In this document: in pieces, positions 780 through 56,503 of the stretch
Numbering within the stretch: position 1 is the stretch's first letter
Layout: each line of letters opens with the position of its first letter
NCBI GenBank assembly: GCA_002479255.1
Contig: DLMJ01000042.1
Location: 16,942 to 80,941 of the forward strand
Direction of reading: 5' to 3'
Source: Candidatus Binatus soli
GTDB taxonomy: Bacteria > Desulfobacterota > Binatia > Binatales > Binataceae
DNA length: 64,000 bases
The notes under the pieces: model-generated
The model's database searches: none
The model's input: the letters and a program-made list of their open reading frames with translations, nothing else
Told to the model about the DNA's origin: nothing
Translations under genes and position numbers: made by a program

Positions 780-1457
780 TTATTGATTGGGCACCAGTTC
801 GACGCGGCGGTTCTGAGCGCGGCCCTCAGCAGTGTCGTTGGTGGCTACGAAGTCGGTCTTGCCGTACCCGTGCGGAATCAACTGACTCGACGGGATTCCG
901 GCTTTCACGAGGTAATCCACCACGGCGTCTGAACGTCGATCAGACAACTTCAAGTTGTATTCCTCGCTGCCGATCGCGTCGCAGTAGCCGTTGACGTTGA
1001 TCGTGACGTTCGGATTGGCCTTAAGTGTTGATGCGGCTTCATCCAGAACGGCGGCATCACCCGGGCGAATCTTCGACTTGTTGAAGTCGAAATGCACACC
1101 GCGTAACACCAGCTTCTGCCTGATCGGCGGCGGTGGTGGCGGTGGCGGAGGAGGAGGCGGCGGTGGAGGCGGTGGCGGAGGAGGCGGTGGCACCCGTTTC
1201 GGCGCCAGCAGGTAGCCGATCGTGCCGCCGATCAGAGCGCCCCCCACAACGCCCGTGGGGCATCCGATCTCATAACCCTTTGCGGAACCACTTACCCCGG
1301 CAGCAACTCCACACCCTATCCCTCCGCCGACGAGCGCCCCGCCGGCCGCTCCGTACGCGGTGTACTCTTTCTGCTCAGGCGTCCACGACGCGCACGACGA
1401 GACCGTCAAAAGAGCGACAGACGCCGCTACGGTAATCCAACTTTTCCATCTAAACAT
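780..1457 (-). CDS. OmpA-family lipoprotein, paralogue 1: lipobox LLTVSSC, Gly-zipper N-domain, ~24-Pro linker, OmpA C-terminal peptidoglycan-binding domain
   Basis: C-terminal NRRVE OmpA/MotB signature. Start chosen at ATG 1457 (MFRWKSW), which has GGGAGGG 6 nt upstream; the track start 1505 lacks an SD. Confidence 0.85.
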   Translation of the reverse strand: MFRWKSWITVAASVALLTVSSCASWTPEQKEYTAYGAAGGALVGGGIGCGVAAGVSGSAKGYEIGCPTGVVGGALIGGTIGYLLAPKRVPPPPPPPPPPPPPPPPPPPPPPIRQKLVLRGVHFDFNKSKIRPGDAAVLDEAASTLKANPNVTINVNGYCDAIGSEEYNLKLSDRRSDAVVDYLVKAGIPSSQLIPHGYGKTDFVATNDTAEGRAQNRRVELVPNQ

Positions 1458-1580
1458 GAGCATCCCTCCCTGGGTTCCAAGTAATTCCAGAATTAAACAC
1501 CGCAAATCCTGCCATTTTTGGGAAACGAAGTCTATTGAAGAGGCGAATCTTTCGCGCTCCGAGACTCGTAATGATGAGGA

Positions 1581-1622
1581 TTCGTTACATTGGTTACATA
1601 CTGGTTATATATTGGTTACATA
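1581..1622. promoter_or_regulatory. Four tandem ~11-bp direct repeats (core GTTACAT; ATGTAAC on the gene strand) upstream of OmpA-like copy 1; candidate response-regulator operator
   Basis: Units tcGTTACATtg / GTTACATactg / GTTATATattg / GTTACATaaag with 9/11/11-bp spacing. Confidence 0.4.
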
Positions 1623-1656
1623 AAGAAGCGGCCGCAACCCCCGATGGGACTGCGGC
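1618..1656 (-). terminator. Terminator-like hairpin of OmpA-like copy 2 (ggccgcaa/ctgcggcc, one mismatch) with a T-rich tail
   Basis: Paralogous copy of the 711-750 hairpin, 3' of the gene end at 1687. Confidence 0.5.
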
Positions 1657-1686
1657 CGATTGCGGACATTTCAATCTCGGCCCCGC

Positions 1687-2367
1687 TTATTGATTGGGCA
1701 CCAGTTCGACGCGACGGTTCTGAGCGCGGCCCTTAGCCGTGTCGTTGGTGGCGACGAAGTCGGTCTTGCCGTACCCGTGCGGAATTAACTGGCTCGACGG
1801 GATTCCGGCTTTCACGAGGTAATCCACCACGGCGTCTGAACGGCGGTCGGACAGCTTCAAGTTGTATTCCTCGCCCCCGATCGCATCGCAGTATCCGTTG
1901 ACGTTGATCGTCACGTTCCGATTGGCCTTAAGCGTTGATGCGGCTTCATCCAGAACGGCGGCATCACCCGGGCGGATCTTCGACTTGTTGAAGTCGAAAT
2001 GCGCACCGCGGATCACCAGCTTCTCCTTGACCGGAGGCGGTGGTGGCGGTGGCGGAGGAGGCGGCGGCGGTGGTGGAGGTGGCGGCGGTGGTGGAGGAGG
2101 CACCGGCTTCGGCGACAGCAAGTAGCCGTTCACGCCGCCGATCAGAGCGCCCATCACAACCCCCGTGATGCATCCGATCTTATAACTCTCTAAGGAACCA
2201 CTCGTTCCCGCCGCAATTCCGCACCCCAGCCCTCCGCCGACGAGCGCGCCGCCGGTCGCTCCGACTGCGGTGTACTCTCTCTGTTCGGGCGTCCACGACG
2301 CGCACGACGAGACCGTCAAAAGAGCGACAGACGCTGCCGCGCCAATCCAATTTTTCCATCTGATCAT
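1687..2367 (-). CDS. OmpA-family lipoprotein, paralogue 2 (Gly-zipper N-domain, ~25-Pro linker, OmpA C domain)
   Basis: Near-identical C-terminal domain to copy 1. Start at ATG 2367 (MIRWKNW) with AGGGG 5 nt upstream; the track start 2373 is a GTG. Confidence 0.85.
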   Translation of the reverse strand: MIRWKNWIGAAASVALLTVSSCASWTPEQREYTAVGATGGALVGGGLGCGIAAGTSGSLESYKIGCITGVVMGALIGGVNGYLLSPKPVPPPPPPPPPPPPPPPPPPPPPPPVKEKLVIRGAHFDFNKSKIRPGDAAVLDEAASTLKANRNVTINVNGYCDAIGGEEYNLKLSDRRSDAVVDYLVKAGIPSSQLIPHGYGKTDFVATNDTAKGRAQNRRVELVPNQ

Positions 2368-2490
2368 GGGCACCCCTGCCTGGTTTCAAGTAATTCTGGA
2401 ATTAAACACCGCAAATCCTGCCATTTTTGGGAACCGAGGTCTATTGAAGAGTCGAATCTTTCGCACTCCTGAGATTCGTAATGATGAGGA

Positions 2491-2521
2491 TTCGTTACAT
2501 TGGTTACATATTGGTTACATA
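2491..2521. promoter_or_regulatory. Three tandem GTTACAT direct repeats upstream of OmpA-like copy 2 (one 11-bp unit fewer than upstream of copy 1)
   Basis: ttcGTTACATtgGTTACATattgGTTACATa. Confidence 0.4.
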
Positions 2522-2557
2522 AAAGAAGCGGCCGCAGCCCCCGATGGGACTGCGGCC
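2517..2557 (-). terminator. Terminator hairpin of OmpA-like copy 3 (perfect ggccgcag/ctgcggcc stem, then GCTTCTTTTATG)
   Basis: Paralogous hairpin 2530-2537/2550-2557, 3' of the gene end at 2587. Confidence 0.5.
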
Positions 2558-2586
2558 GATTGCGGACGTTTCAGTCTCGGCCCGGC

Positions 2587-3303
2587 TTATTGATTGGGCG
2601 CCAGTTCGACGCGGCGGTTCTGAGCGCGGCCCTCAGCAGTGTCGTTGGTGGCTACGAAGTCGGTCTTGCCGTACCCGTGCGGAATCAACTGACTCGACGG
2701 GATTCCGGCTTTCACGAGGTAATCCACCACGGCGTCTGAACGGCGGTCGGACAGCTTCAAGTTGTATTCCTCGCTGCCGATCGCGTCGCAGTAGCCGTTG
2801 ACGTTGATCGTGACGTTCGGATTGGCCTTAAGCGTTGATGCGGCTTCATCCAGAACGGCGGCATCACCCGGGCGAATTTTCGACTTGTTGAAGTCGAAAT
2901 GCACACCGCGTAGCACCAGCTTCTCCTTGACCGGAGGCGGTGGTGGCGGTGGCGGAGGAGGCGGCGGGGGTGGAGGCGGCGGCGGTGGAGGAGGTGGCGG
3001 CGGAATTAGCGGATCGCAGATGTAGTGGCCTGCCAACGCGCCGAGTCCCGCGCCTATGACTGCTCCACCCACACCGGCATAAGCCCTGGCGTCTTTGTCG
3101 CTCTGGTGACGTCCCGCGACATTGTCAGCGATGACGATTCCTGAGGCTGCACCTACCCCTGCGCCAAGCAGTCCTCCGACGACCGCGCAGGTTCCCCACG
3201 AGCGTGGCTTCTGCAAATTTGCGCAACCGCCCAAACTGGAGGCGATTAGCGCCGCACCCGCGACACCGGCGACCGCATTTAAAAACCTTGATTTCAGTCT
3301 CAT
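2587..3303 (-). CDS. OmpA-family lipoprotein, paralogue 3 (different N-terminal domain with lipobox LGGC, ~26-Pro linker, same OmpA C domain)
   Basis: Start at ATG 3303 (MRLKSRF) with GAGGAGGAG 3-5 nt upstream; C-terminal domain about 95% identical to copies 1 and 2. Confidence 0.8.
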   Translation of the reverse strand: MRLKSRFLNAVAGVAGAALIASSLGGCANLQKPRSWGTCAVVGGLLGAGVGAASGIVIADNVAGRHQSDKDARAYAGVGGAVIGAGLGALAGHYICDPLIPPPPPPPPPPPPPPPPPPPPPPPPVKEKLVLRGVHFDFNKSKIRPGDAAVLDEAASTLKANPNVTINVNGYCDAIGSEEYNLKLSDRRSDAVVDYLVKAGIPSSQLIPHGYGKTDFVATNDTAEGRAQNRRVELAPNQ

Positions 3304-3753
3304 GAACTCCTCCTCACCCAAGTGCGTCTATGCGCGAAGCGAACCCCCTCACTTGCCCCTGAGCGTCAATCGTGCCAAACGGGAACTATCCCACCCAATT
3401 GACGGGAAAATATAGTTATATTTGTAACAAGAATGCAACATCTCCGGGGGGTGAAAAGGCGAGATTTTTTGCCCGGGCTGGCGAGCGTTCTCTCGGTGCA
3501 GCCCGGGCTTTCTGTGGATAAGTGGTGGTGAAATTGCCGCGATTTCCCGGTCAAGCTCGGCTCATATAACGCGTAACGCTCTGAATGCCCGCAAAGACGC
3601 TGTTCGGAGCGGTCGTTTGAGTCGAATTAATACTGGTTTGTGTCGCCCTTATGGTGGCCATGCTTCTGCGCATTGGTCTGTTGCCTGAAACCCGTCTGAC
3701 TTGAAGGCGAATTCCGCGCGAAGCGGAAACCCTGCTAGACTGTTTCGCTCATC

Positions 3754-6017
<2,264 letters not shown>

Positions 6018-6021
<4 letters not shown>

Positions 6022-7268
6022 TGCTGCGCGCGCTCGCGGAGTTGGCGAGCGGCGCCAGCGAAAAAATTACGCGCGATAAACGATCGCTCGCCGGCCGCCA
6101 TCGCCTCCAGTATCTCCGCGTTCAACCTGATCGCTTCATTGTCGGCCGGATTCGCATTCAGCGCGATCTCGGCGATCGCCAGCGCGCGCCTGAGTTGGCC
6201 CGCATCCTTGAGTGCGCGCGCCTTTGCGACGATCGCGTCGCGGCCGCAGATCGCGACGATGTCGCCGCCGCGTTCCATCCGCGTCGCCGGAAACATTTGC
6301 GACGGCTCGCCTGACCACCATCCGGCGTAACGCCGGATAACGTCGCGCACCACGAACGCGACGCATCCGTAAATCGGTTGCAGGTACGGCTTCGCCGCGA
6401 GATCGGGCGGGATTGAAATGTCAGCCTCAACTATGTCCACCGGCCACTCGCCTGCGTTGAGCCGCCGCACGACTTCATCATGGATGAATCGGATTGCCCG
6501 CGCCGTCTCGCGCAGCACTTCGTTGCATAGTTGCTCGCCGCGGTACGCGGGTCCGTGGCCCGGCAGAATGTAACGCGGGGTGCATTTCGCGATCGCCTCG
6601 AGCGTCTCCGCCCATTCAAGCGTGTAGCGCTGCACCTTGTTGGGATTGCCCGTGTTCGGCATCGACGAGACGATCAAATCGCCGACCATCGCCAGCCGCC
6701 GCGTCGGCATCCAGACCCAGGTCGCGTCATCCGTCTCGCCCATCGCGTGATGCAGCTCGACCGGCTCGCCCACCAGGTCGAGAAATTGTTCATCCCGATA
6801 AACCAGGTCGGGGTAGCTGAACGAGTTGCGCTCGAAGAGTCCCTCCGTGGCGAACGCGCCGCCGAACTGGAGTCGATTGATATGCCGCTGCCATCCGCGG
6901 GTAAGCGCGTAGCGTTTGAAGCGGGCGGCGACGTCCTCTTGCGCCCAGATTTTCGGCCGCGCATGCCCGCGCTTGATCGCGTCGGTAATGAACGCCTGGG
7001 CGCCGAACGCGTGATCGCCGTGGCCATGCGTGTATATGAGAAAGGCGAACGGCTCCTCGCTGACCTCGCGAATCGCGCGCACCGCCATCGCGCCCATCAG
7101 CCGCGAGCTGGTATCGACGACGATCATCTCACCGCGCCCGTATGCGAACGCGACGTTGGCGAAGCCGTGGAACATCGCGATTCCCGGCTCGAGCACTTCG
7201 AGCTGTCCCATCAGCGGGTCGAAGCCCGGCATGCCGTTCGATTGCTTGAGGCTGGGCGTGGAACTCAT
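6018..7268 (-). CDS. MBL-fold metallo-hydrolase (HGHGDH motif), alkyl-sulfatase-like N-terminal and dimerisation region
   Basis: [13 protein letters not shown] metallo-beta-lactamase motif; 416 aa. Confidence 0.8.
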
Positions 7269-9750: not shown

Positions 9751-10065
9751 ATGCGGACAGGAAAAGTTGTCGTATCGAAAATTCGCGAACGGGGACTGCG
9801 AATCATTCCGGCAGCGGCCTTGGCCGCGTCGCTGGGGATGCTCGCGCTCGGCGGATGCTCGTCGCAGAACGCGGATGTGCCGCCGGAACATCCGATGATG
9901 GCAAATTTCGCGCTCGAAAAGTGCCAGCAGCTCGATGCGAACCTTTATAAATGTCCGGCCGTGGATCAGCCACTCTGTACGCCGGAGTTCACTCGCACCG
10001 ATATTAATTGCGTGCACATCGGACCCAAAGGCAGCGTCTTCATTCAGCGCCAGGGCGCGCTCTGA
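9751..10065 (+). CDS. Small Cys-containing lipoprotein (lipobox LGGC), hypothetical
   Basis: Strong SD (gagaggag) 7 nt upstream of the ATG; signal peptide with lipobox. Confidence 0.6.
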   Translation: MRTGKVVVSKIRERGLRIIPAAALAASLGMLALGGCSSQNADVPPEHPMMANFALEKCQQLDANLYKCPAVDQPLCTPEFTRTDINCVHIGPKGSVFIQRQGAL

Positions 10066-10474: not shown

Positions 10475-11289
10475 CGCGTGACGCGCCGCCGCGGACTCAT
10501 CCGACTTCAGTGGTAGGCCCCGAGGTCGAGCTGGCCGCCGGCGTCGAGGTCGGTCCGTTGTGCCTCCTCGACGGAAAAATTCGTGTCGGTGCGCGCACCC
10601 GTTTAATCGGTCACGTCACGATTATGGGCATCACGGAACTCGGCGCCGACAACGTGCTTCATCCGGGCGCTGTTATCGGCGACGAGCCGCAGGATCTCAC
10701 GTACACGGGTGGCGCACGCTCGGTGAAAATCGGCGATCGAAACATCTTCCGCGAACATTCCACGCTCCATAGCGGCAGCGAGCGCGGCGACGTCACCATC
10801 ATGGGCGACGACAACTTCATGATGCAGAATGCGCACGTTGCGCACGATTGCCGAATCGGCAACTCGACCATCATCGCCGGCGGCGCGCTGCTCGCCGGCT
10901 GGGTCGAGCTCGGCGACCGCGCTCTCGTCTCCGGCAACTGCGTCGTGCATCAGTACACTCGCATCGGGCGGCTCGCGATGATGCGCGGTCTGTCGCGTAC
11001 CAGTCGCGACGTGCCGCCGTTCTGCATCATGGACGGCACCCATACCCTGCGCGGGATCAATGTCGTTGGACTCAAGCGCGCGGGAATTTCGTCGAAGTCG
11101 ATTCATGCGCTCCGGCGCGCCTTCACAACGCTCTTCGGCACGCGCCAGAATCTCAAACTTGCAATCGAGAGACTCGAGAAATCCGGCGATCTTGCGCCCG
11201 AAGTAATCGAGATGCTGGATTTCATCCGCGCCTCAAAACGAGGTGTCGCCTTCGGCCCCTTGGACCGGCACTCCGATTCCGACTCCTGA
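10471..11289 (+). CDS. lpxA: Acyl-ACP--UDP-N-acetylglucosamine O-acyltransferase
   Basis: Left-handed beta-helix hexapeptide repeats plus an LpxA-type C-terminal helical domain; TTG start overlapping the yacG stop (TTGA). Confidence 0.85.
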   Translation: MTRDAPPRTHPTSVVGPEVELAAGVEVGPLCLLDGKIRVGARTRLIGHVTIMGITELGADNVLHPGAVIGDEPQDLTYTGGARSVKIGDRNIFREHSTLHSGSERGDVTIMGDDNFMMQNAHVAHDCRIGNSTIIAGGALLAGWVELGDRALVSGNCVVHQYTRIGRLAMMRGLSRTSRDVPPFCIMDGTHTLRGINVVGLKRAGISSKSIHALRRAFTTLFGTRQNLKLAIERLEKSGDLAPEVIEMLDFIRASKRGVAFGPLDRHSDSDS

Positions 11290-11370
11290 ATACTGCGCTG
11301 CCGTCGCCACGGCCGATTGCTTGCGCATCCGCCCCCTGAAACAATCATAACGAAACGGGGAAGTGAAAAA

Positions 11371-11820
11371 ATGAACATACGTCCACGATTTTTCATCGGC
11401 GCGGGACTGATCATCCTGGCGATTGGCTACCTTATCGGCAATGCGATGCGCACCACCTCGGAATACTACCTGACCGTCACTGAAGTGGCCGCGCGCCAAA
11501 GCGAGCTTGGCGGGCAGGCGCTGCGTGTTGCAGGCCGCGTCAAGCCCGGCACGACCGACTGGGACCCGAACACGCTGACCCTGAAATTTGAAATCGTGCC
11601 GATCCCCGACGTCGATGCTGGCGGCGCGCTTATCAAACCTGTCGTAGCGACCGAGCCGGTCTCGTTCCGCGTCGTATCCGCCGGCGAGCCCAAGCCCGAC
11701 ATGTTCGCGCCCGGCCGCGACGTTATCGTCGAGGGCAAGCTCGGCGCGGGCGGCGTTATCACCGCGACGCAGGTGATGACCAGTTGCGCTTCCAAATACA
11801 AGCCCAAACAATCACAATAG
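11371..11820 (+). CDS. ccmE: Cytochrome c-type biogenesis heme chaperone CcmE, CxxxY variant (SCASKY in place of HDENY)
   Basis: N-terminal TM anchor, OB-fold region, PDMFAPGRDVIVEGKL motif; C-terminal CASKY aligns to the E. coli H130xxxY134 positions. Confidence 0.85.
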   Translation: MNIRPRFFIGAGLIILAIGYLIGNAMRTTSEYYLTVTEVAARQSELGGQALRVAGRVKPGTTDWDPNTLTLKFEIVPIPDVDAGGALIKPVVATEPVSFRVVSAGEPKPDMFAPGRDVIVEGKLGAGGVITATQVMTSCASKYKPKQSQ

Positions 11821-11835
11821 CGGCTGGTCCTACTG

Positions 11836-13860
11836 ATGCCGGAACTTGGTAACCTCGCGCTCGCGATCGCGCTGATTCTGGCCGTCTATTCCATCGTCGC
11901 GAATATCTACGGCGCGCGCCGCAATGCGCCCGACTTCGTCGTCAGCGCGCGTCACGCGATATGGTCGATGTGCGCGATGGTCACGATTGCGGTCGTCGTG
12001 CTGTGGGTGGCCCTGCTGCGCAGCGACTTCTCGCTCGAGTACGTCGCCACATATTCCAGCACCACACTCCCGACCGCTTACAAAATCACCGCGCTATGGG
12101 CCGGGCAGCAGGGCTCGCTGATGCTCTGGACCTGGTTGCTGGCGATCTTCACGTCGGTAGCCGCCTTTCAGAATCGCCGCCGCAATCCCGACACCGCGCC
12201 CTACGCGCTGGCCGTGCTGGCCGGCGTCGCGATTTTCTTTCTGTTGATGCTGAATTTCGTCACCCGTCCGTTCGATCTGCTCGCGACGATTCCCGCCGAA
12301 GGTTCCGACCTCAATCCACTGTTGCAGAACTATTGGATGGCGATACATCCGCCGTCTCTCTACATCGGCTACGTCAGCGCATCTGTTCCGTTCGCATTCG
12401 GCGCCGCCGCGCTCATCACCGGCAAACTCGACGACGGATGGATTCGCTCGACGCGCCGATGGGCGATTTTTTCCTGGTTCTTTCTGACTCTCGGCAATCT
12501 GTTCGGCGCCCGCTGGGCCTACGAAGTTCTCGGCTGGGGCGGTTACTGGGCCTGGGACCCGGTCGAGAACGCAGCCTTCATGCCGTGGCTCGTGATGACC
12601 GCGTACCTGCATTCGGTGATGATCCAGGAACGCAAGGACATGCTGAAGATCTGGAACCTGTCGCTGATTGGACTCGCATTCGAACTCACGCTGTTCGGCA
12701 CTTTCATCACGCGCAGCGGCGTCATCTCGTCGGTGCATTCGTTCACGCAATCCGGCCTCGGTCCATACTTCCTCAGCTTCCTGGCAGCGGTGACGCTCGC
12801 CTACACCGCACTTTTGATTTACCGCTCGAAGCAATTGCGCAGTCCCGCCGAATTTGAGTCGTATCTGTCGCGCGAGGCCGCGTTTTTGTTCAACAACCTC
12901 ATACTGGTCGGGATCACGTTCGCCGTTTTCTGGGGCACCGTCTTTCCCGTGCTGTCGGAGGCGGTGCGTGGCGTGAAGATTACCGTCGGACCGCCGTTCT
13001 TCAATCGCGTCATCGCACCGCTGGCGCTCGGGCTGGTGTTCCTGACGGGCATCGGGCCGCTGATCGCGTGGCGGCGCACGACCACTGACAATCTTGTGCG
13101 CAGTTTCGCCGCGCCCGTCGCGATTGGCGTCGTGACCGGGATCATCGCCGCCGCTGCCGGTTTGCGCCAATGGTACGTGCTGACCGCCCTCTCTTTGGCC
13201 GCGTTCGTGATGGGCACCGTACTCGTCGAGTTTCGCCGCGGGATGAACGCGCGCCGCCACATGCTGGCCGAGCCGCCCGCCAAAGCGCTCGTCAATCTCG
13301 TTGCCAAGAACAACCGCCGCTACGGCGGCTACGTCATCCACGTCGGCGTGGTCGTCGCGTTCATCGGAATCGTCGGCTCGTCGTTCTTCCGCACCGAAGT
13401 AAAAAAGAGCGTGCACGCGGGCGACAGCTTTACGATCGGTTCGTACACTCTGCGCTTCCTGGGTCTCTCGGAGGTCGACACGCCTCATCTCGCGAGCGCG
13501 ACCGCACGCGTCGAGGTGCTGAGCGCTGACGGCCGCGAAATCACCGTGATGTCGCCGGCGAAGCTTTTCTTCATACGGGCGCAGCAGCCCGCGACCGAAG
13601 TCGCAATCCGCTCCACTCCCTTAAGCGACCTCTATGTTGTGCTCGCCGGAATCGACGACAGCGGTCAGACCGCGACCTTCGAAGTGTTTTTGACGCCCCT
13701 GGTCTTCTGGCTGTGGGCCGGCGGCCTGCTGATGGTGCTCGGCACTGTGATTGTGATGTGGCCCAACGTGCGCGAGCGCGCCGCAATCGCGACCGTGCTG
13801 AGCCGCTCGTCCACCGCCGCGCGCGAACTCAACGACGTGGCCGCTCCCGGGGGTGATTGA
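11836..13860 (+). CDS. ccmF: Cytochrome c-type biogenesis protein CcmF (heme lyase component)
   Basis: 674-aa polytopic membrane protein with WWD-family motifs typical of CcmF. Confidence 0.95.
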   Translation: MPELGNLALAIALILAVYSIVANIYGARRNAPDFVVSARHAIWSMCAMVTIAVVVLWVALLRSDFSLEYVATYSSTTLPTAYKITALWAGQQGSLMLWTWLLAIFTSVAAFQNRRRNPDTAPYALAVLAGVAIFFLLMLNFVTRPFDLLATIPAEGSDLNPLLQNYWMAIHPPSLYIGYVSASVPFAFGAAALITGKLDDGWIRSTRRWAIFSWFFLTLGNLFGARWAYEVLGWGGYWAWDPVENAAFMPWLVMTAYLHSVMIQERKDMLKIWNLSLIGLAFELTLFGTFITRSGVISSVHSFTQSGLGPYFLSFLAAVTLAYTALLIYRSKQLRSPAEFESYLSREAAFLFNNLILVGITFAVFWGTVFPVLSEAVRGVKITVGPPFFNRVIAPLALGLVFLTGIGPLIAWRRTTTDNLVRSFAAPVAIGVVTGIIAAAAGLRQWYVLTALSLAAFVMGTVLVEFRRGMNARRHMLAEPPAKALVNLVAKNNRRYGGYVIHVGVVVAFIGIVGSSFFRTEVKKSVHAGDSFTIGSYTLRFLGLSEVDTPHLASATARVEVLSADGREITVMSPAKLFFIRAQQPATEVAIRSTPLSDLYVVLAGIDDSGQTATFEVFLTPLVFWLWAGGLLMVLGTVIVMWPNVRERAAIATVLSRSSTAARELNDVAAPGGD

Positions 13861-14389
13861 ATCTGTGCGTTCGCAATTCGCATTTGCACCGTCGCTGCGG
13901 TTTGCGTTCATCGTCGTCGCACTCTTCGTTTTAGTTTCCCCTGAACTAAAAAATGTTTCACGTGAAACATTTGCAAAGGAAACCCCAACCAATGCGGAGG
14001 TTTCCGAAGGATTAACCTGCCAATGCGGATGCGGTCTCACCGTCGCCAACTGCAATATGCCGACCTGCGGCTTTTCAGTGCCGCTCCGCGCCGAGATGGA
14101 CGGCATGATCCGCAAAGGGATGAGCCGTGCGCAGATAATTGCCTTCTATCGCCACAAGTACGGCGAGAAAGTCCTGTCCTCGCCGACCACTGAGGGCTTC
14201 AATCTGCTCGCCTGGACGATGCCTTTCATCGCGCTCGTACTCGGCGGCGGCTTGATGGTGCTCGTGGTCGGGCGATGGCGCTCCAATTCGCCGTCTGCGC
14301 CGTCCGGCTCGAAACCGGCCGTGGAGCCGTCGTCATTCGATCCCGAACTCAGGCGCAGACTCGAAAACGAACTCAAGGAGCGCAGATAA
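13853..14389 (+). CDS. ccmH: Cytochrome c-type biogenesis protein CcmH (CxxC-type)
   Basis: LTCQCGCGLTVANCN redox motif and MDGMIRKGMSRAQIIAFYRHKYGEKV. GTG start overlapping ccmF by 8 nt. Confidence 0.8.
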   Translation: MIESVRSQFAFAPSLRFAFIVVALFVLVSPELKNVSRETFAKETPTNAEVSEGLTCQCGCGLTVANCNMPTCGFSVPLRAEMDGMIRKGMSRAQIIAFYRHKYGEKVLSSPTTEGFNLLAWTMPFIALVLGGGLMVLVVGRWRSNSPSAPSGSKPAVEPSSFDPELRRRLENELKERR

Positions 14390-14392
14390 CCG

Positions 14393-14923
14393 GTGTTCAT
14401 TCTTGCCGCCGCGCTGATTGTCGCCGGAGTCGCGCTGTTCGTGGCGGCTCCGCTCGGCATCGGGCTCGCCGGAGTGCGCGCCAAGTCGCCGGGCGAGCTT
14501 CAAGTGGAGCGCCACGAGCATGAACGCGCGCTGGCGGTGCAGGGTCTTCGCGAACTCGAGTTCGATCGCGAGATGGGCAAGTTGTCTGACGCGGACTACG
14601 ATTCGATGCACAAGGCGCTCGAGGAGCGGGCGCTGACCGCGATGGCCGCGGTCGAGAATTTCCGCCTCCAGACCGACAAAGCCGCAAACCCGAAGAAACT
14701 TTCCTCAACACCTTTGACGCAAGCGCCGCGCCGCGCCGACGCCGTGCCGACGCCCGTCGTGCACGCCGAACCGCCACAGCCGCCGCAATCCTCGCCGGCG
14801 CCGTCGCGCAAGATTCGCTTCTGTTCGAAATGCGGAACGCGCGCCGCGGCCGACTCGAAGTTCTGCGCGCAATGCGGCATCGCGATCAAGCCAATGGGCG
14901 GCGCGGCCGCCTGGACTGAGTGA
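14393..14923 (+). CDS. CcmI N-terminal-module-like membrane protein with a C-terminal zinc ribbon (CxxC-x10-CxxC)
   Basis: TM helix plus a leucine-zipper-like segment resembling the CcmI/CycH N-terminus; no TPR region; ends CSKCG...CAQCG. Confidence 0.6.
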   Translation: MFILAAALIVAGVALFVAAPLGIGLAGVRAKSPGELQVERHEHERALAVQGLRELEFDREMGKLSDADYDSMHKALEERALTAMAAVENFRLQTDKAANPKKLSSTPLTQAPRRADAVPTPVVHAEPPQPPQSSPAPSRKIRFCSKCGTRAAADSKFCAQCGIAIKPMGGAAAWTE

Positions 14924-15624
14924 TGTCGGCGCCCGTTGTCGAGACTCGCAGCCTGGCAAAGGCTTACGGTCTGGCGCCCGTCCTGCGCGAAGTGCAATTA
15001 CGGCTGCTGGCGGGTACGGGCGCGTTTATAGTTGGCGGCAACGGCGCCGGGAAATCCACCCTGCTGCGAATCCTGGCCGGACTCGAAGCACCGAGCGCCG
15101 GCCACGCCCTGGTCTTCGGGCAGGACACGCGCAGACTCGCGGCCCGCTATCGGCGCCGAATCGGCCTGATGGCGCATCAGAGTTTCCTCTACCCGAATCT
15201 GACCGCGCGGGAGAATCTCGAATTCTACGGTGAACTGTATTCCCTCGCCGACCCGCGTGCGTCCGCCCATCAATGGCTCGGCCGGGTCGGACTGGCCGAC
15301 GCTGCCGATATCCGGGTGCGTGCGTTCTCGCGCGGGATGGAGCAGCGCCTCTCTGCCGCGCGCGCGATGCTTGCCGAGCCTGCTCTGCTGCTGCTCGACG
15401 AGCCGTTTGCGTCGCTCGACCATGACGGCGCCGAAATCGTCGCGGCGCTGATTCGCGGCGCTATCGAACGCGGCGCCTGCGTGCTGGCAACCACTCATGG
15501 AATCCCCGAAATAGACGGCGTCGAGTTGGCGGTCTTCGAAATCTCGCGCGGCCGCCTGATGCAGCATGCGCGTAAGGAGGAGGTCCGGCGCGGCGGGCGA
15601 ATCCGCTCGCTGCTGGGCAGATAG
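14920..15624 (+). CDS. ccmA: Heme exporter ATP-binding protein CcmA
   Basis: ABC ATPase with Walker A GGNGAGKST; operon position before ccmB. Confidence 0.9.
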   Translation: MMSAPVVETRSLAKAYGLAPVLREVQLRLLAGTGAFIVGGNGAGKSTLLRILAGLEAPSAGHALVFGQDTRRLAARYRRRIGLMAHQSFLYPNLTARENLEFYGELYSLADPRASAHQWLGRVGLADAADIRVRAFSRGMEQRLSAARAMLAEPALLLLDEPFASLDHDGAEIVAALIRGAIERGACVLATTHGIPEIDGVELAVFEISRGRLMQHARKEEVRRGGRIRSLLGR

Positions 15625-15629
15625 AAGCC

Positions 15630-16301
15630 GTGTCGGGCTTTGCCGCCGTCCTGCGCAAGGACCTGCGCCTCGAGCTCCGCAGCGGCGAGAGCACGCTGGC
15701 GCTGCTTGCGCTCTCGATGCTGGTGCTGGTGGTGCTGGTCTTCGCGCTCGGCGCGGCGCGCGTGCGCAGCGTCGACGCGGCGGCGGGCGCGCTGTGGGTG
15801 GCGATGGTGTTCGCGGGGATGCTGGGCGCCAATCGCGCGCTGCTCGCGGAGCGCGACAACGGCGCGATTCGCGGTCTGCTGCTCAGCCCGCTCGATCCCT
15901 CCACACTCTACGCCGCGAAACTCTGCGCTGCGTTGATCTTCATGGCGGTGGCCGAGGTTGGCGCGGTCATCCTGATGGTGTTGTTCTTCAATCTCGACTT
16001 CGACGCATCGATGGCGCGGCTGGCTCCGATTCTGGCGCTGGGCGCGGTCGGATTTTCCGCGCTGGCCACCCTGCTCTCCGCAATCACGGGACGCACTCGC
16101 GGCGGCGATATGCTATTGCCGATTCTGGCCGTGCCGATTTTCGTGCCGGCGCTGATTGCGGGCGTCAAGGCGAGTGCAGCCGCGCTCGCCGGCGCGCCGT
16201 TTGAGTCGATGGGCGACTGGCTGAAGATCATGATCGCGTTCGACGTGCTGTTCGTCTCCGCCGGTTACCTGCTGTTCGAGCATGTGGTAGGCGGGGACTG
16301 A
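15630..16301 (+). CDS. ccmB: Heme exporter permease CcmB
   Basis: 223-aa 6-TM protein typical of CcmB; GTG start 5 nt after ccmA. Confidence 0.9.
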   Translation: MSGFAAVLRKDLRLELRSGESTLALLALSMLVLVVLVFALGAARVRSVDAAAGALWVAMVFAGMLGANRALLAERDNGAIRGLLLSPLDPSTLYAAKLCAALIFMAVAEVGAVILMVLFFNLDFDASMARLAPILALGAVGFSALATLLSAITGRTRGGDMLLPILAVPIFVPALIAGVKASAAALAGAPFESMGDWLKIMIAFDVLFVSAGYLLFEHVVGGD

Positions 16302-16325
16302 CCAAAGGAAAAGACCGGTGGCCCC

Positions 16326-17039
16326 ATGAACAACCCCACGATTCGCAACTGGCTCGGATTCTCGACGCTGGCCCTGATGCTGGCGTCACTGTTCATGGTC
16401 TTCGACTACGTTCCCCCCGATGCCGAGATGGGAATCGCCCAGTTGATCTTTTATTTTCACGTCCCGCTCGCCTGGGTCGCGTTCGCGTCGTTCGGGCTGG
16501 TCGCGATAGCCGGGATATTTTACCTGTGGCTCGGCGATCAGCTCTGGGACGATCTCGGCTACGCCGCCGCCGAAACCGGAATGGTCTTCTGCACGCTGAT
16601 GATTGTCGCGGGTTCGATTTGGGCCAAGCCGATTTGGGGCACGTGGTGGACGTGGGACTCGCGGCTGACGATGACTTTTATCCTGTGGCTGATGTACGGC
16701 GGCTACCTGATGCTGCGCGCCAGCGCCGATGACACGCCGCAGGTGGCCCGCTTCGGCGCGGTGATTGGAATCGTCGCCGCGCTGGACGTGCCGATCGTTA
16801 TCGTGTCGGTGCGGATGTGGCGCACGATACATCCCGCGGTGCTGGTTACCAAGCAGGGCACTCATGGCTTGGAGGATCCGCGGATGATCTGGACGCTGAT
16901 GGTGTGCCTGGCGGCATTTACCGCGTTGTGGGCGTGGCTCCTGATGCTGCGATTCACACAGTTGCGGACGCGAAGCAGGATGGGCAGGCTGTCCAGCAGG
17001 ATCGCGTTCGCGACCGCGGCGGCATCCGACCCCAAGTAA
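16326..17039 (+). CDS. ccmC: Heme exporter protein CcmC
   Basis: WWD domain WGTWWTWDSRLT. Confidence 0.95.
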   Translation: MNNPTIRNWLGFSTLALMLASLFMVFDYVPPDAEMGIAQLIFYFHVPLAWVAFASFGLVAIAGIFYLWLGDQLWDDLGYAAAETGMVFCTLMIVAGSIWAKPIWGTWWTWDSRLTMTFILWLMYGGYLMLRASADDTPQVARFGAVIGIVAALDVPIVIVSVRMWRTIHPAVLVTKQGTHGLEDPRMIWTLMVCLAAFTALWAWLLMLRFTQLRTRSRMGRLSSRIAFATAAASDPK

Positions 17040-17052
17040 TGGAGTTGAGTTG

Positions 17053-17244
17053 ATGGGAGCACATTTTGGATACCTGTTCGCCGCGTACAGCATCATCTTC
17101 ATCGTGATTTTCCTGTACGTAATGTTCATCTGGCGCCGCCAGGCGGCGCTTGACGCGGAACTTCGCACGCTGGAGGCGCGGATGGCGGCGCTGGCGGAGC
17201 GGTCGGCGGCCGGCGGTCCAACGGAGCCGCAATCCGAGGCTTGA
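17053..17244 (+). CDS. ccmD: Heme exporter protein CcmD (small single-TM protein)
   Basis: 64-aa hydrophobic protein directly after ccmC; GGAG 8 nt upstream of ATG 17053. Confidence 0.65.
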   Translation: MGAHFGYLFAAYSIIFIVIFLYVMFIWRRQAALDAELRTLEARMAALAERSAAGGPTEPQSEA

Positions 17245-17263
17245 ACCGGGTTCGCGCGGCGCA

Positions 17264-17287
17264 ACTTGCTAATCGAGCATAGCAAGT
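17264..17287. promoter_or_regulatory. 8-bp perfect inverted repeat ACTTGCTA-N8-TAGCAAGT between ccmD and cbpA; candidate operator or stem-loop
   Basis: Read directly; followed by a second small palindrome GTAACtgagGTTAC. Confidence 0.3.
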
Positions 17288-17334
17288 AGGGTATAGTAAC
17301 TGAGGTTACGAATGTTGCCGACTGAGTATTCCGG

Positions 17335-18468
17335 ATGGAATTTCGCGACTACTACAAAACTCTCGGCGTCGATCGGAAAGCCAGCGGGGCGGAAATCAAG
17401 AGCGCCTACCGCAAGCTCGCCCGCAAATTCCATCCCGACGTAAATCCCAACAACAAGGATGCCGAGGCCAAATTCAAGCAACTGAACGAGGCCTACCAGG
17501 TCATCGGCGACGCCGACAAGCGCAAGAAGTACGACGAGCTCGGCGCCGACTGGGAGCACGGCGTATCGCAGGAAGAGATGATGCGCCGCTATGCGCGGCA
17601 GCAATCGCCGGCCGGCGCGGGCGCGGGCGCAGACTTCGGCGGCGGCGATTTCAGCGATTTCTTTTCGCAATTCTTCGGCGGCGGCGCAGCGGCCGGTTTT
17701 GGACATAGCGCCGGCAGGCGCCGGGGTTCGTCGCGCGGATTTTCCGGCTTCGATTTCGAGACCAGCGGCGCGGGCGCCGAGCCGGCGCGCGCGCCGGATC
17801 TTCGCGCCGAAGTCAGAATCCCGCTCGTCGATGCCGTCAAGGGCGCGAAGCGGCGGCTCGATCTCGTCGCCGAGGACGAATGCGCCACCTGCCGCGGCAG
17901 CGGGATGATCGCGCGCGAGGAAAAGCAGGGCAAGGCGCGCGTGATTCGCTCCGCCGAGCCATGTCCGACCTGCGGCGGAGGTGGCGTGGTGCAGGCACGG
18001 CGCACGCTCGAAGTCACAATCCCGGCGGGCGTGGCGGACGGCACGCAGTTGCGCTTGAAGGGGCAGGGCGGCCGCGCACCGCGTCCCGATCAGAATGGCG
18101 ATCTCTTCCTGACGGTCAGAATCGAACCGAACCCGGTGTTTGCGCTTGCAGGCCGCGACCTCCGCGTCGATTTACCGGTGTGGGACTACGAAGCGGCGCT
18201 CGGCGCCGAAATCACCGTGCCGACGGTTGACGGGCGCGTGTCGCTCAAGATTCCGGCCGCAAGCCAGGCGGGACGGGTGATGCGGCTGCGCGGGCGGGGA
18301 CTGCCGGCGCACGGCAAGGAGCCGGCGGGGGACCTGCTCTACGAACTGAAGGTGCTCGCGCCGACCGACTTGAGCGCCAAGGAGCGCGAGCTCATGCAGC
18401 AATTGGCCGATAGTCTGAAGGCGCGCGGGATTGCCGATCCGCGGGCGGAACTGATGGCGTCGAAATGA
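17335..18468 (+). CDS. cbpA: DnaJ-family co-chaperone, CbpA-like (J domain, G/F-rich region, partial CxxCxGxG zinc centre, C-terminal substrate domains)
   Basis: YYKTLGV...HPDVN J-domain with HPD motif; followed by a cbpM-like gene. Confidence 0.85.
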
Positions 18469-55204: not shown

Positions 55205-56503
55205 ATGCGGCTCGTCGGTCGAATCGCTTTTTTCTCGATTGCCGCGGCAGTGTTAGCAACGGAGCGAGTCGAGTTGCGCGCGCAACCTGCTGTTCCGGAT
55301 TCGCGGGCCGCATCGTCGAGTCCCGAAGCTGCTGCGGCATTGAAGCCCGGGACGATTATCGGCGCGGACAATATCGACCAGTACTTGCGCTATGTTCCTT
55401 CGGCAGCCAAGTTTGCCGTCGCGCATGGCTTTCGCATGCGAATTATCCCCGATCGCCGCGTCGAATGGTCCCAGGGCTTTCAGCACGCGACCGAAAAATA
55501 CGCCGCGCAAGTCACGCTCGACAACGACGATTACATCAAGAACTATGTCGCTGGCATGCCGTTTCCTCTGATCGACGCAATCGACCCGAAGGCTGCGGTG
55601 AAGATCGCCTACAACTGGCATATGGGACCGTTCATGCCGGACGATTTTTCGATTGCGCCATGGCGCAGCAACGGCTACGCCGCCGATCCCGCCAACGCTC
55701 TGAAAATAGTTCCGAACAGCGATTCCGACTACGGCTGCGAGCAGTTCGAGTTCCTGCGCTTTGCCCATCGCACCGACGTCGATCCACGCCCGACGATCGG
55801 CGGCAATGCGATGGGCTTCGAGTGGAAGGCGAGATGCAATCGATGGATGAGCGATCTCACCGGCACCCCGAGCGAAGGCGCCGGCATCTGGGTGCGTTAT
55901 CTCGACCCGAAGCATCCCGACGAGTTTTTCTCGTTCAGTGAAACGTCGCGCCGCGTGCGGCGTATCGCTGTGAATCTGGACTATCCCAATGAAGGCTGCC
56001 GCGGATGCCATCAGCCGTTTTGGGCCTATGCGCTGCCCAAGACCGAGAACTATCTGTATCGCTTGCTCGGCAGCACGGCACTGCTGGGTTGTTTGGCGGC
56101 CGATCAAGAGCCGGCGGGATTCAAGACCGGCGGCGAAGGATTGACGCTTGGCGAGGAACCGTTCGCAGTTCGCCACGCATACATTCTCGAGATGCGGCCG
56201 CGATTCCCCGATGAAGCGTCGGCGGGACTGCGCACTATCATCTATATCGACAGCGAGGTGTACGTTTGGCTGGCCGCGGAATTTTACGACTCGGGCGGTC
56301 TGACTGCGACGGCGATGCCGCTGTGGCGAATGCGGCCGTCGTCAGAGGGCGGAAGTCTGTTCGATCTCGCGGGCAGCTTTTATCATCCCCAGAACCGCGG
56401 ATCGTTCTTCCGCTCGCTCGTTCCCGCGCACATTGAATTCAAGCAGGCAATCAACAACGGCAGTGTCGGGGAAGGCGCGTTCAATCCGCAAATGATGCGC
56501 TGA
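55205..56503 (+). CDS. Secreted hypothetical protein, possibly DUF1329/LolA-like family
   Basis: Signal peptide MRLVGRIAFFSIAAAVLA; 432 aa; the family assignment is from memory of DUF1329 architecture and is low-confidence. Confidence 0.7.
   Translation: MRLVGRIAFFSIAAAVLATERVELRAQPAVPDSRAASSSPEAAAALKPGTIIGADNIDQYLRYVPSAAKFAVAHGFRMRIIPDRRVEWSQGFQHATEKYAAQVTLDNDDYIKNYVAGMPFPLIDAIDPKAAVKIAYNWHMGPFMPDDFSIAPWRSNGYAADPANALKIVPNSDSDYGCEQFEFLRFAHRTDVDPRPTIGGNAMGFEWKARCNRWMSDLTGTPSEGAGIWVRYLDPKHPDEFFSFSETSRRVRRIAVNLDYPNEGCRGCHQPFWAYALPKTENYLYRLLGSTALLGCLAADQEPAGFKTGGEGLTLGEEPFAVRHAYILEMRPRFPDEASAGLRTIIYIDSEVYVWLAAEFYDSGGLTATAMPLWRMRPSSEGGSLFDLAGSFYHPQNRGSFFRSLVPAHIEFKQAINNGSVGEGAFNPQMMR

What the first reader, a model, noticed from the sequence alone, without database searches (positions are those of the whole stretch)
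11371..17244. System I cytochrome c maturation operon in a non-canonical order, with a CxxxY CcmE and no ccmG
The order is ccmE-ccmF-ccmH-(ccmI-like)-ccmA-ccmB-ccmC-ccmD, with tight or overlapping junctions. Classical proteobacteria have ccmABCDEFGH. CcmE ends ...TQVMTSCASKYKP, so the covalent heme-binding His of the HxxxY motif is replaced by Cys (CxxxY). That variant is described in archaea and Desulfovibrio-type System I. No thioredoxin-like CcmG is present in the cluster.
Basis: partly seen in the sequence, partly recalled or inferred. Interest (0 to 1): 0.55.

Follow-up and report, generated by a model that had tools for sequence, protein, structure and literature searches.

The report
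Cys-type cytochrome c maturation operon
This is an intact eight-gene operon of the soil bacterium Candidatus Binatus soli that attaches heme to c-type cytochromes by the already described "System I*" route (cysteine instead of histidine in the heme chaperone CcmE, no CcmG); the only unreported details are a CcmH whose usual CxxC redox motif is replaced by a conserved CxCxC motif and a shortened, zinc-ribbon CcmI.

Summary
Window 11371-17244 (+) carries ccmE-ccmF-ccmH-ccmI-like-ccmA-ccmB-ccmC-ccmD with gaps of 24 nt or less, or overlaps. CcmE Cys139 aligns with E. coli His130 and D. vulgaris Cys127, and Tyr143 with Tyr134. No thioredoxin-like or CcdA-like ORF lies in the cluster or anywhere in the 64 kb.

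This is System I* (Allen 2006, Goddard 2010). A 2011 review already says about one third of bacteria with Cys-CcmE keep CcmH. The locus is from Candidatus Binatus soli, and public records already name these proteins CcmE, CcmH and CcmI. The gene order is conserved across Binatia.

Two things go beyond the finding:
- **CcmH motif.** CcmH has no CxxC. It has CxCxC-x6-C-x4-C, invariant in 120/120 homologues and in 69/69 motif-scorable CcmH genes at the genome loci.
- **Link to ccmG.** A sister Cys-CcmE clade (Anaerolineae/Caldilineaceae) keeps CPVC in CcmH, and a ccmG-like gene follows ccmH in 30/34 loci. The CxCxC type never has one in the cluster.
- **CcmI.** The "CcmI" is one membrane helix, a loop and a cytoplasmic zinc ribbon, with no TPR domain.

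I found neither variation in the searchable literature. Verdict: an ordinary, functional System I* operon of a modestly new subtype.

The parts
11371..11820 (+). ccmE, 149 aa: N-terminal membrane anchor plus OB-fold heme chaperone of the Cys type. The CASKY motif is aa 139-143 (nt 11785-11799); the Cys139 codon is 11785-11787.
   Evidence: PF03100, 72 bits. Alignment to E. coli, Shewanella and D. vulgaris CcmE structures. CxxxY in 120/120 homologues. Motif coordinates.
11836..13860 (+). ccmF, 674 aa: heme lyase / holocytochrome c synthetase subunit. WWD motif WGGYWAWDPVEN is aa 234-245. The four conserved His are in AIHPP (His171), YLHSV (His259), SVHSF (His301) and VIHVG (His502).
   Evidence: PF16327 and PF01578. 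E=8e-117 to T. thermophilus CcmF 6zmq, with every one of these residues aligned to the same residue. Coordinates.
13853..14389 (+). ccmH variant, 178 aa: signal/anchor helix, periplasmic domain, C-terminal membrane helix. There is no CxxC. The motif CQCGCGLTVANCNMPTC (CxCxC-x6-C-x4-C) is aa 56-72, nt 14018-14068.
   Evidence: PF03918, 73 bits. hhalign to E. coli CcmH gives 96% probability. Motif invariant in 69/69 motif-scorable CcmH genes at genome loci and 120/120 homologues. Hydrophobic segments.
14393..14923 (+). ccmI-like gene, 176 aa: one N-terminal membrane helix, a conserved helical loop (ELEFDREMGKLSD, aa 54-66), a Pro-rich linker and a C-terminal zinc ribbon CSKCG-x9-FCAQCG (aa 144-161, nt 14822-14875). 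It has no second membrane helix and no TPR domain.
   Evidence: TIGR03142, 33.3 bits over profile positions 1-86 of 118. PF13240 zinc ribbon and no TPR hit. 100% identical to a protein that NCBI names CcmI of Candidatus Binatus soli. Zinc ribbon in 120/120 homologues. Single hydrophobic segment.
14920..15624 (+). ccmA: ABC ATPase with Walker A GGNGAGKST, signature SRGMEQR and Walker B LLLDEP. The start is GTG at 14920 or, as in public gene calls, ATG at 14923.
   Evidence: TIGR01189, 143.9 bits, above its cut-off of 131.6. Motifs. Public gene calls.
15630..16301 (+). ccmB: membrane subunit of the CcmAB ABC module.
   Evidence: PF03379, 110 bits; TIGR01190, E=9e-16.
16326..17039 (+). ccmC: heme-handling protein with WWD motif WGTWWTWD (aa 104-111) and the two external heme-ligand His (YFHVP, His45; RTIHP, His169).
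   Evidence: E=1.8e-22 to E. coli CcmC 7f02_C, with these residues aligned to E. coli YLHVP, WGTWWVWD and NTLHQ. Coordinates.
17050..17244 (+). ccmD of the alternative family: a small single-helix protein of 63-64 aa. ATG at 17053 is the probable start.
   Evidence: TIGR04391 (CcmD_alt_fam), 43.1 bits, above its cut-off of 24. Public gene call of 63 aa.

Best explanation
This is the working cytochrome c maturation operon of Candidatus Binatus soli (phylum Binatota). It is a System I* machine.

Heme delivery, inferred by homology to the E. coli and Desulfovibrio systems:
- CcmC presents heme at its WWD site, ligated by His45 and His169.
- Heme is attached covalently to Cys139 of the membrane-anchored chaperone CcmE, with Tyr143 as iron ligand.
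- CcmA, CcmB and CcmD use ATP to release holo-CcmE.

Ligation, also inferred: CcmF takes the heme and ligates it to the CXXCH cysteines of secreted apocytochromes. CcmF has its own WWD site and four His for the b-heme and the incoming heme. It works with the periplasmic CcmH and the small membrane protein CcmI-like.

Shown here:
- All eight genes are intact.
- All catalytic residues of CcmA, CcmC, CcmE and CcmF are in place.
- The order E-F-H-I-A-B-C-D is conserved across the class Binatia.
- The operon lacks ccmG.

The operon belongs to a subtype in which CcmH has CxCxC-x6-C-x4-C instead of LRCxxC, and CcmI is reduced to a membrane helix, a cytoplasmic loop and a zinc ribbon.

My inference on CcmH: it still acts at the apocytochrome/CcmF interface as a holdase or thiol partner. 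Its remodelled cysteine cluster goes together with not needing an operon-encoded CcmG.
For: - Family assignments above curated cut-offs for all eight genes.
- Residue-level alignments to solved CcmE, CcmF and CcmC structures.
- Cys-type CcmE in 120/120 close homologues, and in 122 of the 125 nearest cluster representatives that show a C-terminal [C/H]xxx[Y/F] motif.
- The same order in all 49 genome loci long enough to show all eight genes, down to 41% CcmE identity. The same order, CcmH motif and zinc-ribbon gene occur on a contig whose CcmE sits in a 90%-identity cluster labelled Dehalococcoidia.
- The CcmH motif is the most conserved stretch of that protein: columns L54-V64, C67, N68 and C72 are invariant at 32-53% overall identity.
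- ccmG-like Redoxin and CcdA are absent from the window. They give one weak, non-adjacent hit in 80 related loci.
- In the sister Cys-CcmE clade, CcmH keeps CPVC and a WCxPC Redoxin gene follows ccmH in 30 of 34 loci.
- Literature: Cys-CcmE binds heme covalently and supports cytochrome c formation without CcmH or CcmG in Desulfovibrio. [quoted passage not shown]
Against: - No biochemical data exist for any Binatota protein.
- CcmH lacks the CxxC that defines its redox role in System I, so its function here is inferred only from homology and position.
- The AlphaFold2 model of CcmH was poor (pLDDT 57.5), so there is no structural support for any role of the five Cys.
- A ccmG/ccdA pair could lie elsewhere in the genome; only 64 kb was visible.
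- The NCBIfam equivalog models for CcmE, CcmB and CcmC, the CcmF/NrfE subfamily model and the NrfF model matched by CcmH all score below their trusted cut-offs. The proteins are divergent from the proteobacterial ones.
- No clear c-type cytochrome substrate is encoded in the window. There is one ORF with a single CxxCH, at 55205-56503.
Confidence: 0.85

Rival explanations
1. Canonical thio-reduction is retained. ccmG (or a ResA-like thioredoxin) and ccdA/dsbD are simply encoded elsewhere in the Binatus genome. The CxCxC CcmH is reduced by them exactly as CxxC CcmH is. On this reading the motif change is a neutral lineage quirk.
For: - ccmG and ccdA are unlinked to other ccm genes in some organisms, for example M. 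acetivorans (PMC9084895).
- Only 64 kb of the genome could be searched.
- hhalign can align Cys56/Cys58 with the two E. coli Cys by inserting one gap.
Against: - The motif is not drifting. CxCxC-x6-C-x4-C is invariant in every motif-scorable CcmH at the genome loci and in 120 homologues.
- It switches cleanly with ccmG linkage between two sister clades: 30/34 loci with ccmG next to ccmH against none in the cluster.
Confidence: 0.35
2. The five-Cys segment of CcmH is a periplasmic metal site (Zn, Cu(I) or an Fe-S cluster) or a pair of structural disulfides. CcmH would then act only as a scaffold or holdase for CcmF, with no thiol-disulfide chemistry.
For: - Five invariant Cys, in most lineages accompanied by His (TVHSCNHLQC).
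- The two downstream Cys (C67, C72) are shared with the CPVC-type CcmH. They could form a structural disulfide.
- Desulfovibrio System I* works with no CcmH at all, so a redox role is dispensable in this system type (PMC3601427).
Against: - The His residues are not conserved. The window protein has Ala and Met at those positions.
- No metal-binding family matched.
- The structural model was too poor to show any site geometry.
Confidence: 0.25
3. The F-H-I genes are a dedicated NrfEFG-like lyase for an unusual heme motif (CXXCK or similar), not the general cytochrome c synthetase.
For: CcmF scores 445 bits on TIGR03145 (NrfE). CcmH's only NCBIfam hit is NrfF, TIGR03147.
Against: - Both scores are far below the trusted cut-offs (927 and 159).
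- The genes sit in one operon with ccmE and ccmABCD.
- No nrfA-type (PF02335) gene is called within about 7 kb upstream or 10 kb downstream in the public gene calls of the same locus.
- The arrangement is conserved in a core-genome context: glgB-yacG-lpxA on one side, dnaJ-hspR-tilS-ftsH on the other.
Confidence: 0.05
4. The operon is a decaying, non-functional remnant.
For: - The expected CxxC in CcmH is missing.
- The TPR domain of CcmI is missing.
- ccmG is missing.
Against: - All ORFs are intact and translationally coupled.
- Catalytic residues are conserved.
- Hundreds of homologues at 36-95% identity keep the same features.
Confidence: 0.02

Closest known systems
System I* of Desulfovibrio desulfuricans / D. 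vulgaris (Allen et al. 2006; Goddard et al. 2010; reviewed in PMC3601427)
   Same: - Cys replaces the heme-binding His of CcmE, giving a C(P/A)SKY motif.
- ccmE-ccmF come before ccmABCD. The Desulfovibrio order E-F-A-B-C-D is recalled from memory and was not checked here.
- There is no ccmG in the operon.
- CcmD is present.
- A CcmI-type accessory protein is present.
   Different: - Desulfovibrio has no CcmH. This operon has one, with a CxCxC-x6-C-x4-C motif.
- The CcmI-like protein here has no TPR domain and ends in a zinc ribbon.
Cys-CcmE operons of Chloroflexota (Anaerolineae/Caldilineaceae), seen here in L085 and L096-L175
   Same: - Cys-type CcmE (CPTRY).
- Order E-F-H-...-I-A-B-C-D.
- CcmH shares the first Cys and the two downstream Cys (C-x4-C).
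- A small TPR-less CcmI-like protein is present, usually with a zinc ribbon.
   Different: - Their CcmH keeps the canonical CPVC.
- A WCxPC Redoxin (CcmG-like) gene follows ccmH in 30/34 loci.
- In L085, a DsbD_TM gene and a second Redoxin follow ccmD.
- None of these is present in the Binatus type.
Archaeal streamlined Ccm (Methanosarcina acetivorans; PMC9084895)
   Same: - CxxxY CcmE with a Cys needed for heme attachment.
- CcmG and CcdA are dispensable under the highly reducing growth conditions used there.
   Different: - Archaea lack CcmD, CcmH and CcmI and split CcmF in two; their genes are scattered.
- Here CcmD, CcmH and a CcmI-like protein are present, CcmF is a single protein, and all genes are in one operon.
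Classical System I, E. coli ccmABCDEFGH
   Same: - The same protein families for A, B, C, D, E, F and H.
- The same WWD and His residues in CcmC and CcmF.
- The same predicted topology of CcmE and CcmH.
   Different: - Gene order.
- His130 is replaced by Cys in CcmE.
- CcmH has no LRCxxC.
- No CcmG.
- No TPR (CcmI) domain.
- CcmD belongs to the alternative family TIGR04391.

Membership tests
System I (Ccm) cytochrome c maturation | CcmC with a WWD motif and two external His heme ligands (E. coli His60 and His184) | tested here: met
   WGTWWTWD, His45 and His169 align to E. coli CcmC 7f02_C.
System I (Ccm) cytochrome c maturation | CcmF with a WWD motif and four conserved His (two periplasmic, two transmembrane b-heme ligands) | tested here: met
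   E=8e-117 to T. thermophilus CcmF 6zmq. All five elements are aligned and identical.
System I (Ccm) cytochrome c maturation | CcmAB ABC module and CcmD | tested here: met
   TIGR01189 above its cut-off; Walker A and B and signature motifs present; PF03379; TIGR04391 above its cut-off.
System I (Ccm) cytochrome c maturation | CcmE with covalent heme-binding His in HxxxY | tested here: not met
   Cys139 occupies the His130 position and no His is nearby.
System I (Ccm) cytochrome c maturation | CcmH with an LRCxxC thiol-redox motif | tested here: not met
   The only Cys are C56, C58, C60, C67 and C72, and no CxxC spacing exists. The same holds in 120/120 homologues.
System I (Ccm) cytochrome c maturation | CcmG, a membrane-anchored WCxxC thioredoxin | tested here: not met
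   Absent from the operon and from the 64 kb window. Absent from the cluster in 80 related loci. The rest of the genome was not visible.
System I* (Cys-CcmE variant) | Cys at the heme-binding position of CcmE, within CxxxY | tested here: met
   CASKY at aa 139-143. It aligns with D. vulgaris Cys127 (2kct) and E. coli His130/Tyr134.
System I* (Cys-CcmE variant) | Covalent (thioether) heme attachment to that Cys, and cytochrome c formation without CcmG | not testable with these tools
   This needs heme staining or mass spectrometry. The literature precedent is for Desulfovibrio and Methanosarcina only (PMC3601427, PMC9084895).
System I* (Cys-CcmE variant) | Absence of CcmH. This was the original 2006 definition; the 2011 review states it is not characteristic, because about one third of such bacteria have CcmH. 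| tested here: not met
   A PF03918 CcmH is present. PMC3601427, section 'System I*'.
CcmI (CycH) | N-terminal membrane domain with a cytoplasmic loop (TIGR03142) | tested here: met
   33.3 bits against a cut-off of 29.3, over profile positions 1-86 of 118. Only one hydrophobic helix is present.
CcmI (CycH) | Second membrane helix and a periplasmic TPR apocytochrome-binding domain | tested here: not met
   No TPR family at E<0.01. The C-terminus is a zinc ribbon, PF13240. There is a single hydrophobic segment.
NrfEFG dedicated heme lyase | Scores above the NrfE/NrfF trusted cut-offs, and linkage to nrfA | tested here: not met
   444.6 against 927.3 bits, and 29.7 against 159.2 bits. No PF02335 gene in the public gene calls around the locus.

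The most novel reading that the evidence does not exclude
The CxCxC-x6-C-x4-C CcmH defines an undescribed sub-type of System I*, found in Binatota and on at least one contig whose CcmE cluster is labelled Dehalococcoidia. In this sub-type the apocytochrome thiol-handling step has been rebuilt. Three vicinal cysteines give CcmH its own resolving or isomerase-like chemistry, or a metal site. This makes a dedicated CcmG unnecessary, which would explain why ccmG is lost from the operon exactly where the motif changes. The TPR-less zinc-ribbon CcmI would then link the CcmFH synthetase to a cytoplasmic partner instead of chaperoning apocytochrome in the periplasm.
Probability: 0.3. Interest if true: 0.55.

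Novelty: new variant of a known kind. Interest (0 to 1): 0.35.

Why it matters
These are the gene order, the Cys-CcmE and the missing ccmG.

The comparative result adds something. The roles of CcmH and CcmG in System I are still debated: who reduces the apocytochrome, and whether CcmH does thiol chemistry or ensures stereospecific ligation (PMC3601427). Two natural sister versions of the same Cys-CcmE operon now exist. One has CxxC-CcmH plus CcmG; the other has CxCxC-CcmH and no CcmG. They form a ready-made swap experiment.

It also shows that the automatic names 'CcmH' and 'CcmI' in hundreds of Binatia and Chloroflexota genomes cover proteins that lack the motifs or domains from which those names derive their assumed function.

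Tried and rejected
- **Structure of CcmH.** AlphaFold2 with 26 homologues gave pLDDT 57.5 and pTM 0.31. I drew no structural inference and ran no fold search.
- **CcmH against the PDB.** Single-sequence phmmer found nothing. A profile found E. coli and P. aeruginosa CcmH only over helices 2-3 (E=0.007-0.013). The Cys region therefore had to be placed by hhalign and by BLASTP to the CPVC-type CcmH.
- Alignments A1 and A5 were too diverse for the genome and metagenome scans. Narrower alignments were used instead.
- **Contig look-ups.** Six look-ups of diverse CcmE representatives returned contigs too short to show ccmH or ccmG.
- **Promoters and terminators.** The scan of 11100-17500 gave no more sites than shuffled sequence, so no operon boundaries are claimed from it.
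- **Literature.** Goddard et al. 2010 (PMC2906280) is not held, so the Desulfovibrio gene order is quoted from memory only. Searches for 'CQCGCG', for 'CcmH'+'CXCXC' and for CcmH/CcmE/CcmG+Chloroflex found no description of the CcmH variant. The library covers open-access papers only.
- **HspR operator idea.** I considered that the inverted repeat after ccmD is a conserved HspR operator. The strict palindrome was found in 0 of 49 related loci. Only a partly conserved promoter-like stretch remains.
- **Rejected readings.** A pseudogenised operon and an NrfEFG-type dedicated lyase (see rival explanations).

Full report
**1. What is in the sequence**

On the + strand between 11371 and 17244 there are eight consecutive ORFs. 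They match the following families:

| Gene | Match | Score (curated cut-off) |
|---|---|---|
| ccmE | PF03100 | 72 bits (24.6) |
| ccmF | PF16327 + PF01578 | 224 and 134 bits |
| ccmH | PF03918 | 73 bits (25) |
| ccmI-like | TIGR03142 N-terminal domain + PF13240 zinc ribbon | 33.3 bits (29.3) |
| ccmA | TIGR01189 | 143.9 bits (131.6) |
| ccmB | PF03379 | 110 bits |
| ccmC | PF01578; TIGR01191 | 97 bits; 133 bits |
| ccmD | TIGR04391 (alternative CcmD family) | 43 bits (24) |

The flanks are core housekeeping genes: glgB, yacG and lpxA upstream, and dnaJ, a MerR/HspR-type regulator, tilS and ftsH downstream. Base composition is even across the region.

**2. The CcmE cysteine**

HMMER alignments to solved CcmE chains put Cys139 of the window protein on His130 of E. 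coli CcmE and Tyr143 on Tyr134 (8ce8_E, 1sr3_A). Cys139 also falls on the equivalent His of Shewanella CcmE (1j6q) and on Cys127 of the D. vulgaris protein (2kct). There is no His in the C-terminal tail.

**3. Origin and prevalence**

The CcmI-like protein is 100% identical to a protein that NCBI names 'c-type cytochrome biogenesis protein CcmI [Candidatus Binatus soli]'. The same locus, with the same gene calls, is in public assemblies such as GCA_050015535.1.

- All 120 closest CcmE homologues (78-95% identity) carry CxxxY.
- Among the 150 nearest 50%-identity cluster representatives out of 1.84 billion proteins, 125 show a C-terminal [C/H]xxx[Y/F] motif. Of these, 122 are Cys-type, mostly CPSKY.
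- 80 loci were fetched from species-representative genomes. Most carry Binatia/Binataceae labels or the older 'Deltaproteobacteria' labels. All 49 loci long enough to show eight genes have the order E-F-H-I-A-B-C-D, down to 41% CcmE identity. Several others have E-F-H-I with ABCD elsewhere.

**4. What is known**

The Cys-for-His CcmE, first linked with absence of CcmH, was described in 2006 for archaea and some bacteria and was named System I*. The Desulfovibrio operon makes holocytochrome c in E. coli without CcmH or CcmG, and its CcmE binds heme covalently.

The 2011 review adds four points (PMC3601427):
- Delta-proteobacteria, Chloroflexi and Firmicutes carry such CcmEs.
- CPSKY is the commonest motif.
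- About one third of these bacteria do contain CcmH.
- CcmI enhances but is not required.

In Methanosarcina acetivorans, mutating the Cys (C120A or C120H) abolishes heme attachment to CcmE and holo-cytochrome c formation. CcmG and CcdA are dispensable there under reducing conditions (PMC9084895).

The paper on Binatota genomics does not discuss ccm genes.

**5. Functional integrity**

- CcmC keeps WGTWWTWD and both external His.
- CcmF aligns end to end with the T. thermophilus CcmF crystal structure (E=8e-117). It keeps the WWD motif and all four His.
- CcmA has Walker A, signature and Walker B motifs.
- CcmE and CcmH have the expected hydrophobic anchors.

I conclude the operon is functional. 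The heme pathway C to E to F to apocytochrome is inferred by homology.

**6. CcmH is not canonical**

The protein has only five Cys, at positions 56, 58, 60, 67 and 72 (CQCGCGLTVANCNMPTC). None of them has CxxC spacing. The conserved LRCxxC motif is what the literature uses to define CcmH's redox role (PMC12285233; PMC3601427).

- A profile of ten diverse homologues matches E. coli CcmH at 96% hhalign probability. It aligns LTC with LRC, but it needs a gap to bring a second Cys into register.
- The motif CxCxC-x6-C-x4-C is invariant in all 69 genome-locus CcmH genes in which the motif region could be scored and in 120/120 database homologues.
- It is the most conserved part of the protein.

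**7. The variant extends outside Binatia**

A contig whose CcmE sits in a 90%-identity cluster that NCBI labels Dehalococcoidia shares the whole architecture:
- The same CcmH motif (LICQCGCTLLLSNCDHATC).
- A zinc-ribbon CcmI-like gene.
- The order E-F-H-I-x-A-B-C-D.
- A position next to multiheme cytochrome genes.

MAG taxonomy labels should be read with caution.

**8. A sister clade supplies the contrast**

A CcmE clade with the motif KCP(T/S)RYE is named Anaerolineae or Caldilineaceae where a name exists. It was sampled from one ENA contig (L085) and 80 metagenome loci.

- Its CcmH keeps CPVC and shares the two downstream Cys (LYCPVCENVPLDVCDTPTC).
- In 30 of the 34 loci where ccmH is visible, the next gene is a Redoxin-family protein with WC(K/V/I)PC, that is, a CcmG-like thioredoxin.
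- In L085 a DsbD_TM (CcdA-like) gene and a second Redoxin follow ccmD.

Using those proteins as queries gives a clear negative for the Binatus type. The window gives no hit, and the 80 genome loci (up to 10 kb of flank on each side) give one weak, non-adjacent hit (motif scans).

The CxxC-to-CxCxC change in CcmH and the loss of ccmG from the operon therefore go together. This rests on two clades, so it may reflect a single evolutionary event.

**9. The CcmI-like protein**

It matches only the first 86 of 118 positions of the CcmI N-terminal model and has one hydrophobic helix.

- A conserved loop motif (E-x-E-F-D-x-x-x-G-K-L-S) is shared with the small proteins at the same position in the Chloroflexota loci.
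- It has no TPR domain.
- It ends in a CxxC-x(n)-CxxC zinc ribbon. The ribbon is present in 120/120 close homologues, 49/70 genome loci and 25/32 loci of the sister-clade set.

By the topology of CcmI (N-terminus outside, loop inside; established for R. capsulatus CcmI, from memory), the zinc ribbon would be cytoplasmic. I infer a role in assembling or regulating the CcmFH complex, not in periplasmic apocytochrome chaperoning. This was not tested.

**10. Mechanism and rivals**

Most likely (0.85) this is a functional System I* pathway as described above. What the five Cys of CcmH do is open. Three possibilities remain:
- A self-contained thiol or isomerase-like centre that replaces the CcmH-CcmG relay. 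This is my preferred reading of the co-variation, at about 0.3.
- A canonical relay with an unlinked ccmG/ccdA (about 0.35).
- A metal site or structural disulfides, with CcmH acting only as a scaffold (about 0.25).

The AlphaFold2 model was too poor to discriminate between them. A dedicated Nrf-type lyase and a decayed operon are rejected.

**11. Verdict**

The features reported are those of a known system, in a genome whose genes are already named accordingly. The operon is nevertheless a distinct subtype, with CxCxC-CcmH, a TPR-less zinc-ribbon CcmI and no operon ccmG. I could not find this subtype described (open-access library only). Interest is modest at 0.35, because the subtype offers a natural experiment on the disputed CcmH/CcmG step.

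Noticed in passing
window 17264-17287 (between ccmD and dnaJ): A perfect 8-nt inverted repeat, ACTTGCTA-N8-TAGCAAGT, lies just upstream of TATAGT and of the dnaJ / MerR(HspR)-type gene pair. It resembles an HspR operator (HAIR, from memory) or a promoter. The strict palindrome was found in 0 of 49 related loci. Close relatives keep only a similar TTGCTA...TAGC..GT..TATAGT stretch.
   Followed up: partly
window 11371-11820, CcmE aa ~77-105: Binataceae CcmE carries an insertion of roughly 15-20 residues (IPDVDAGGALIKPVVATEPVSFRVVSAGEPK) in the OB-fold domain. It is absent from E. coli, from Shewanella and from more distant Cys-type CcmEs (alignments). Its function is unknown.
   Followed up: no
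L085 16154-17680 and the related loci L096-L100, L104: In one L085-like subgroup of the Anaerolineae/Caldilineaceae-type loci, ccmA and ccmB appear fused into one 508-aa gene (ABC_tran + CcmB Pfam hits on one product). A cytochrome c gene (PF13442/PF00034) sits inside the ccm cluster, between ccmI-like and ccmAB.
   Followed up: no
L078 (Longimicrobium sp. MAG) 1143-7220: This is a Cys-CcmE cluster with the order E-F-(CcmI-like with zinc ribbon)-A-B-C and no detectable CcmH. The zinc-ribbon CcmI-like gene therefore also occurs in CcmH-less System I* operons.
   Followed up: no
window 9751-10065 (+): A 104-aa ORF with a lipoprotein-like signal (…LGMLALGGCSS…) has no Pfam match. It is called as a gene in public assemblies of the same locus, between glgB and yacG.
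   Followed up: no
window 55205-56503 (+): This is the only ORF found in the window with a CxxCH motif (a single copy). It is a 432-aa protein with a signal-like N-terminus and a DUF1329 match. It may or may not be a c-type cytochrome substrate.
   Followed up: no
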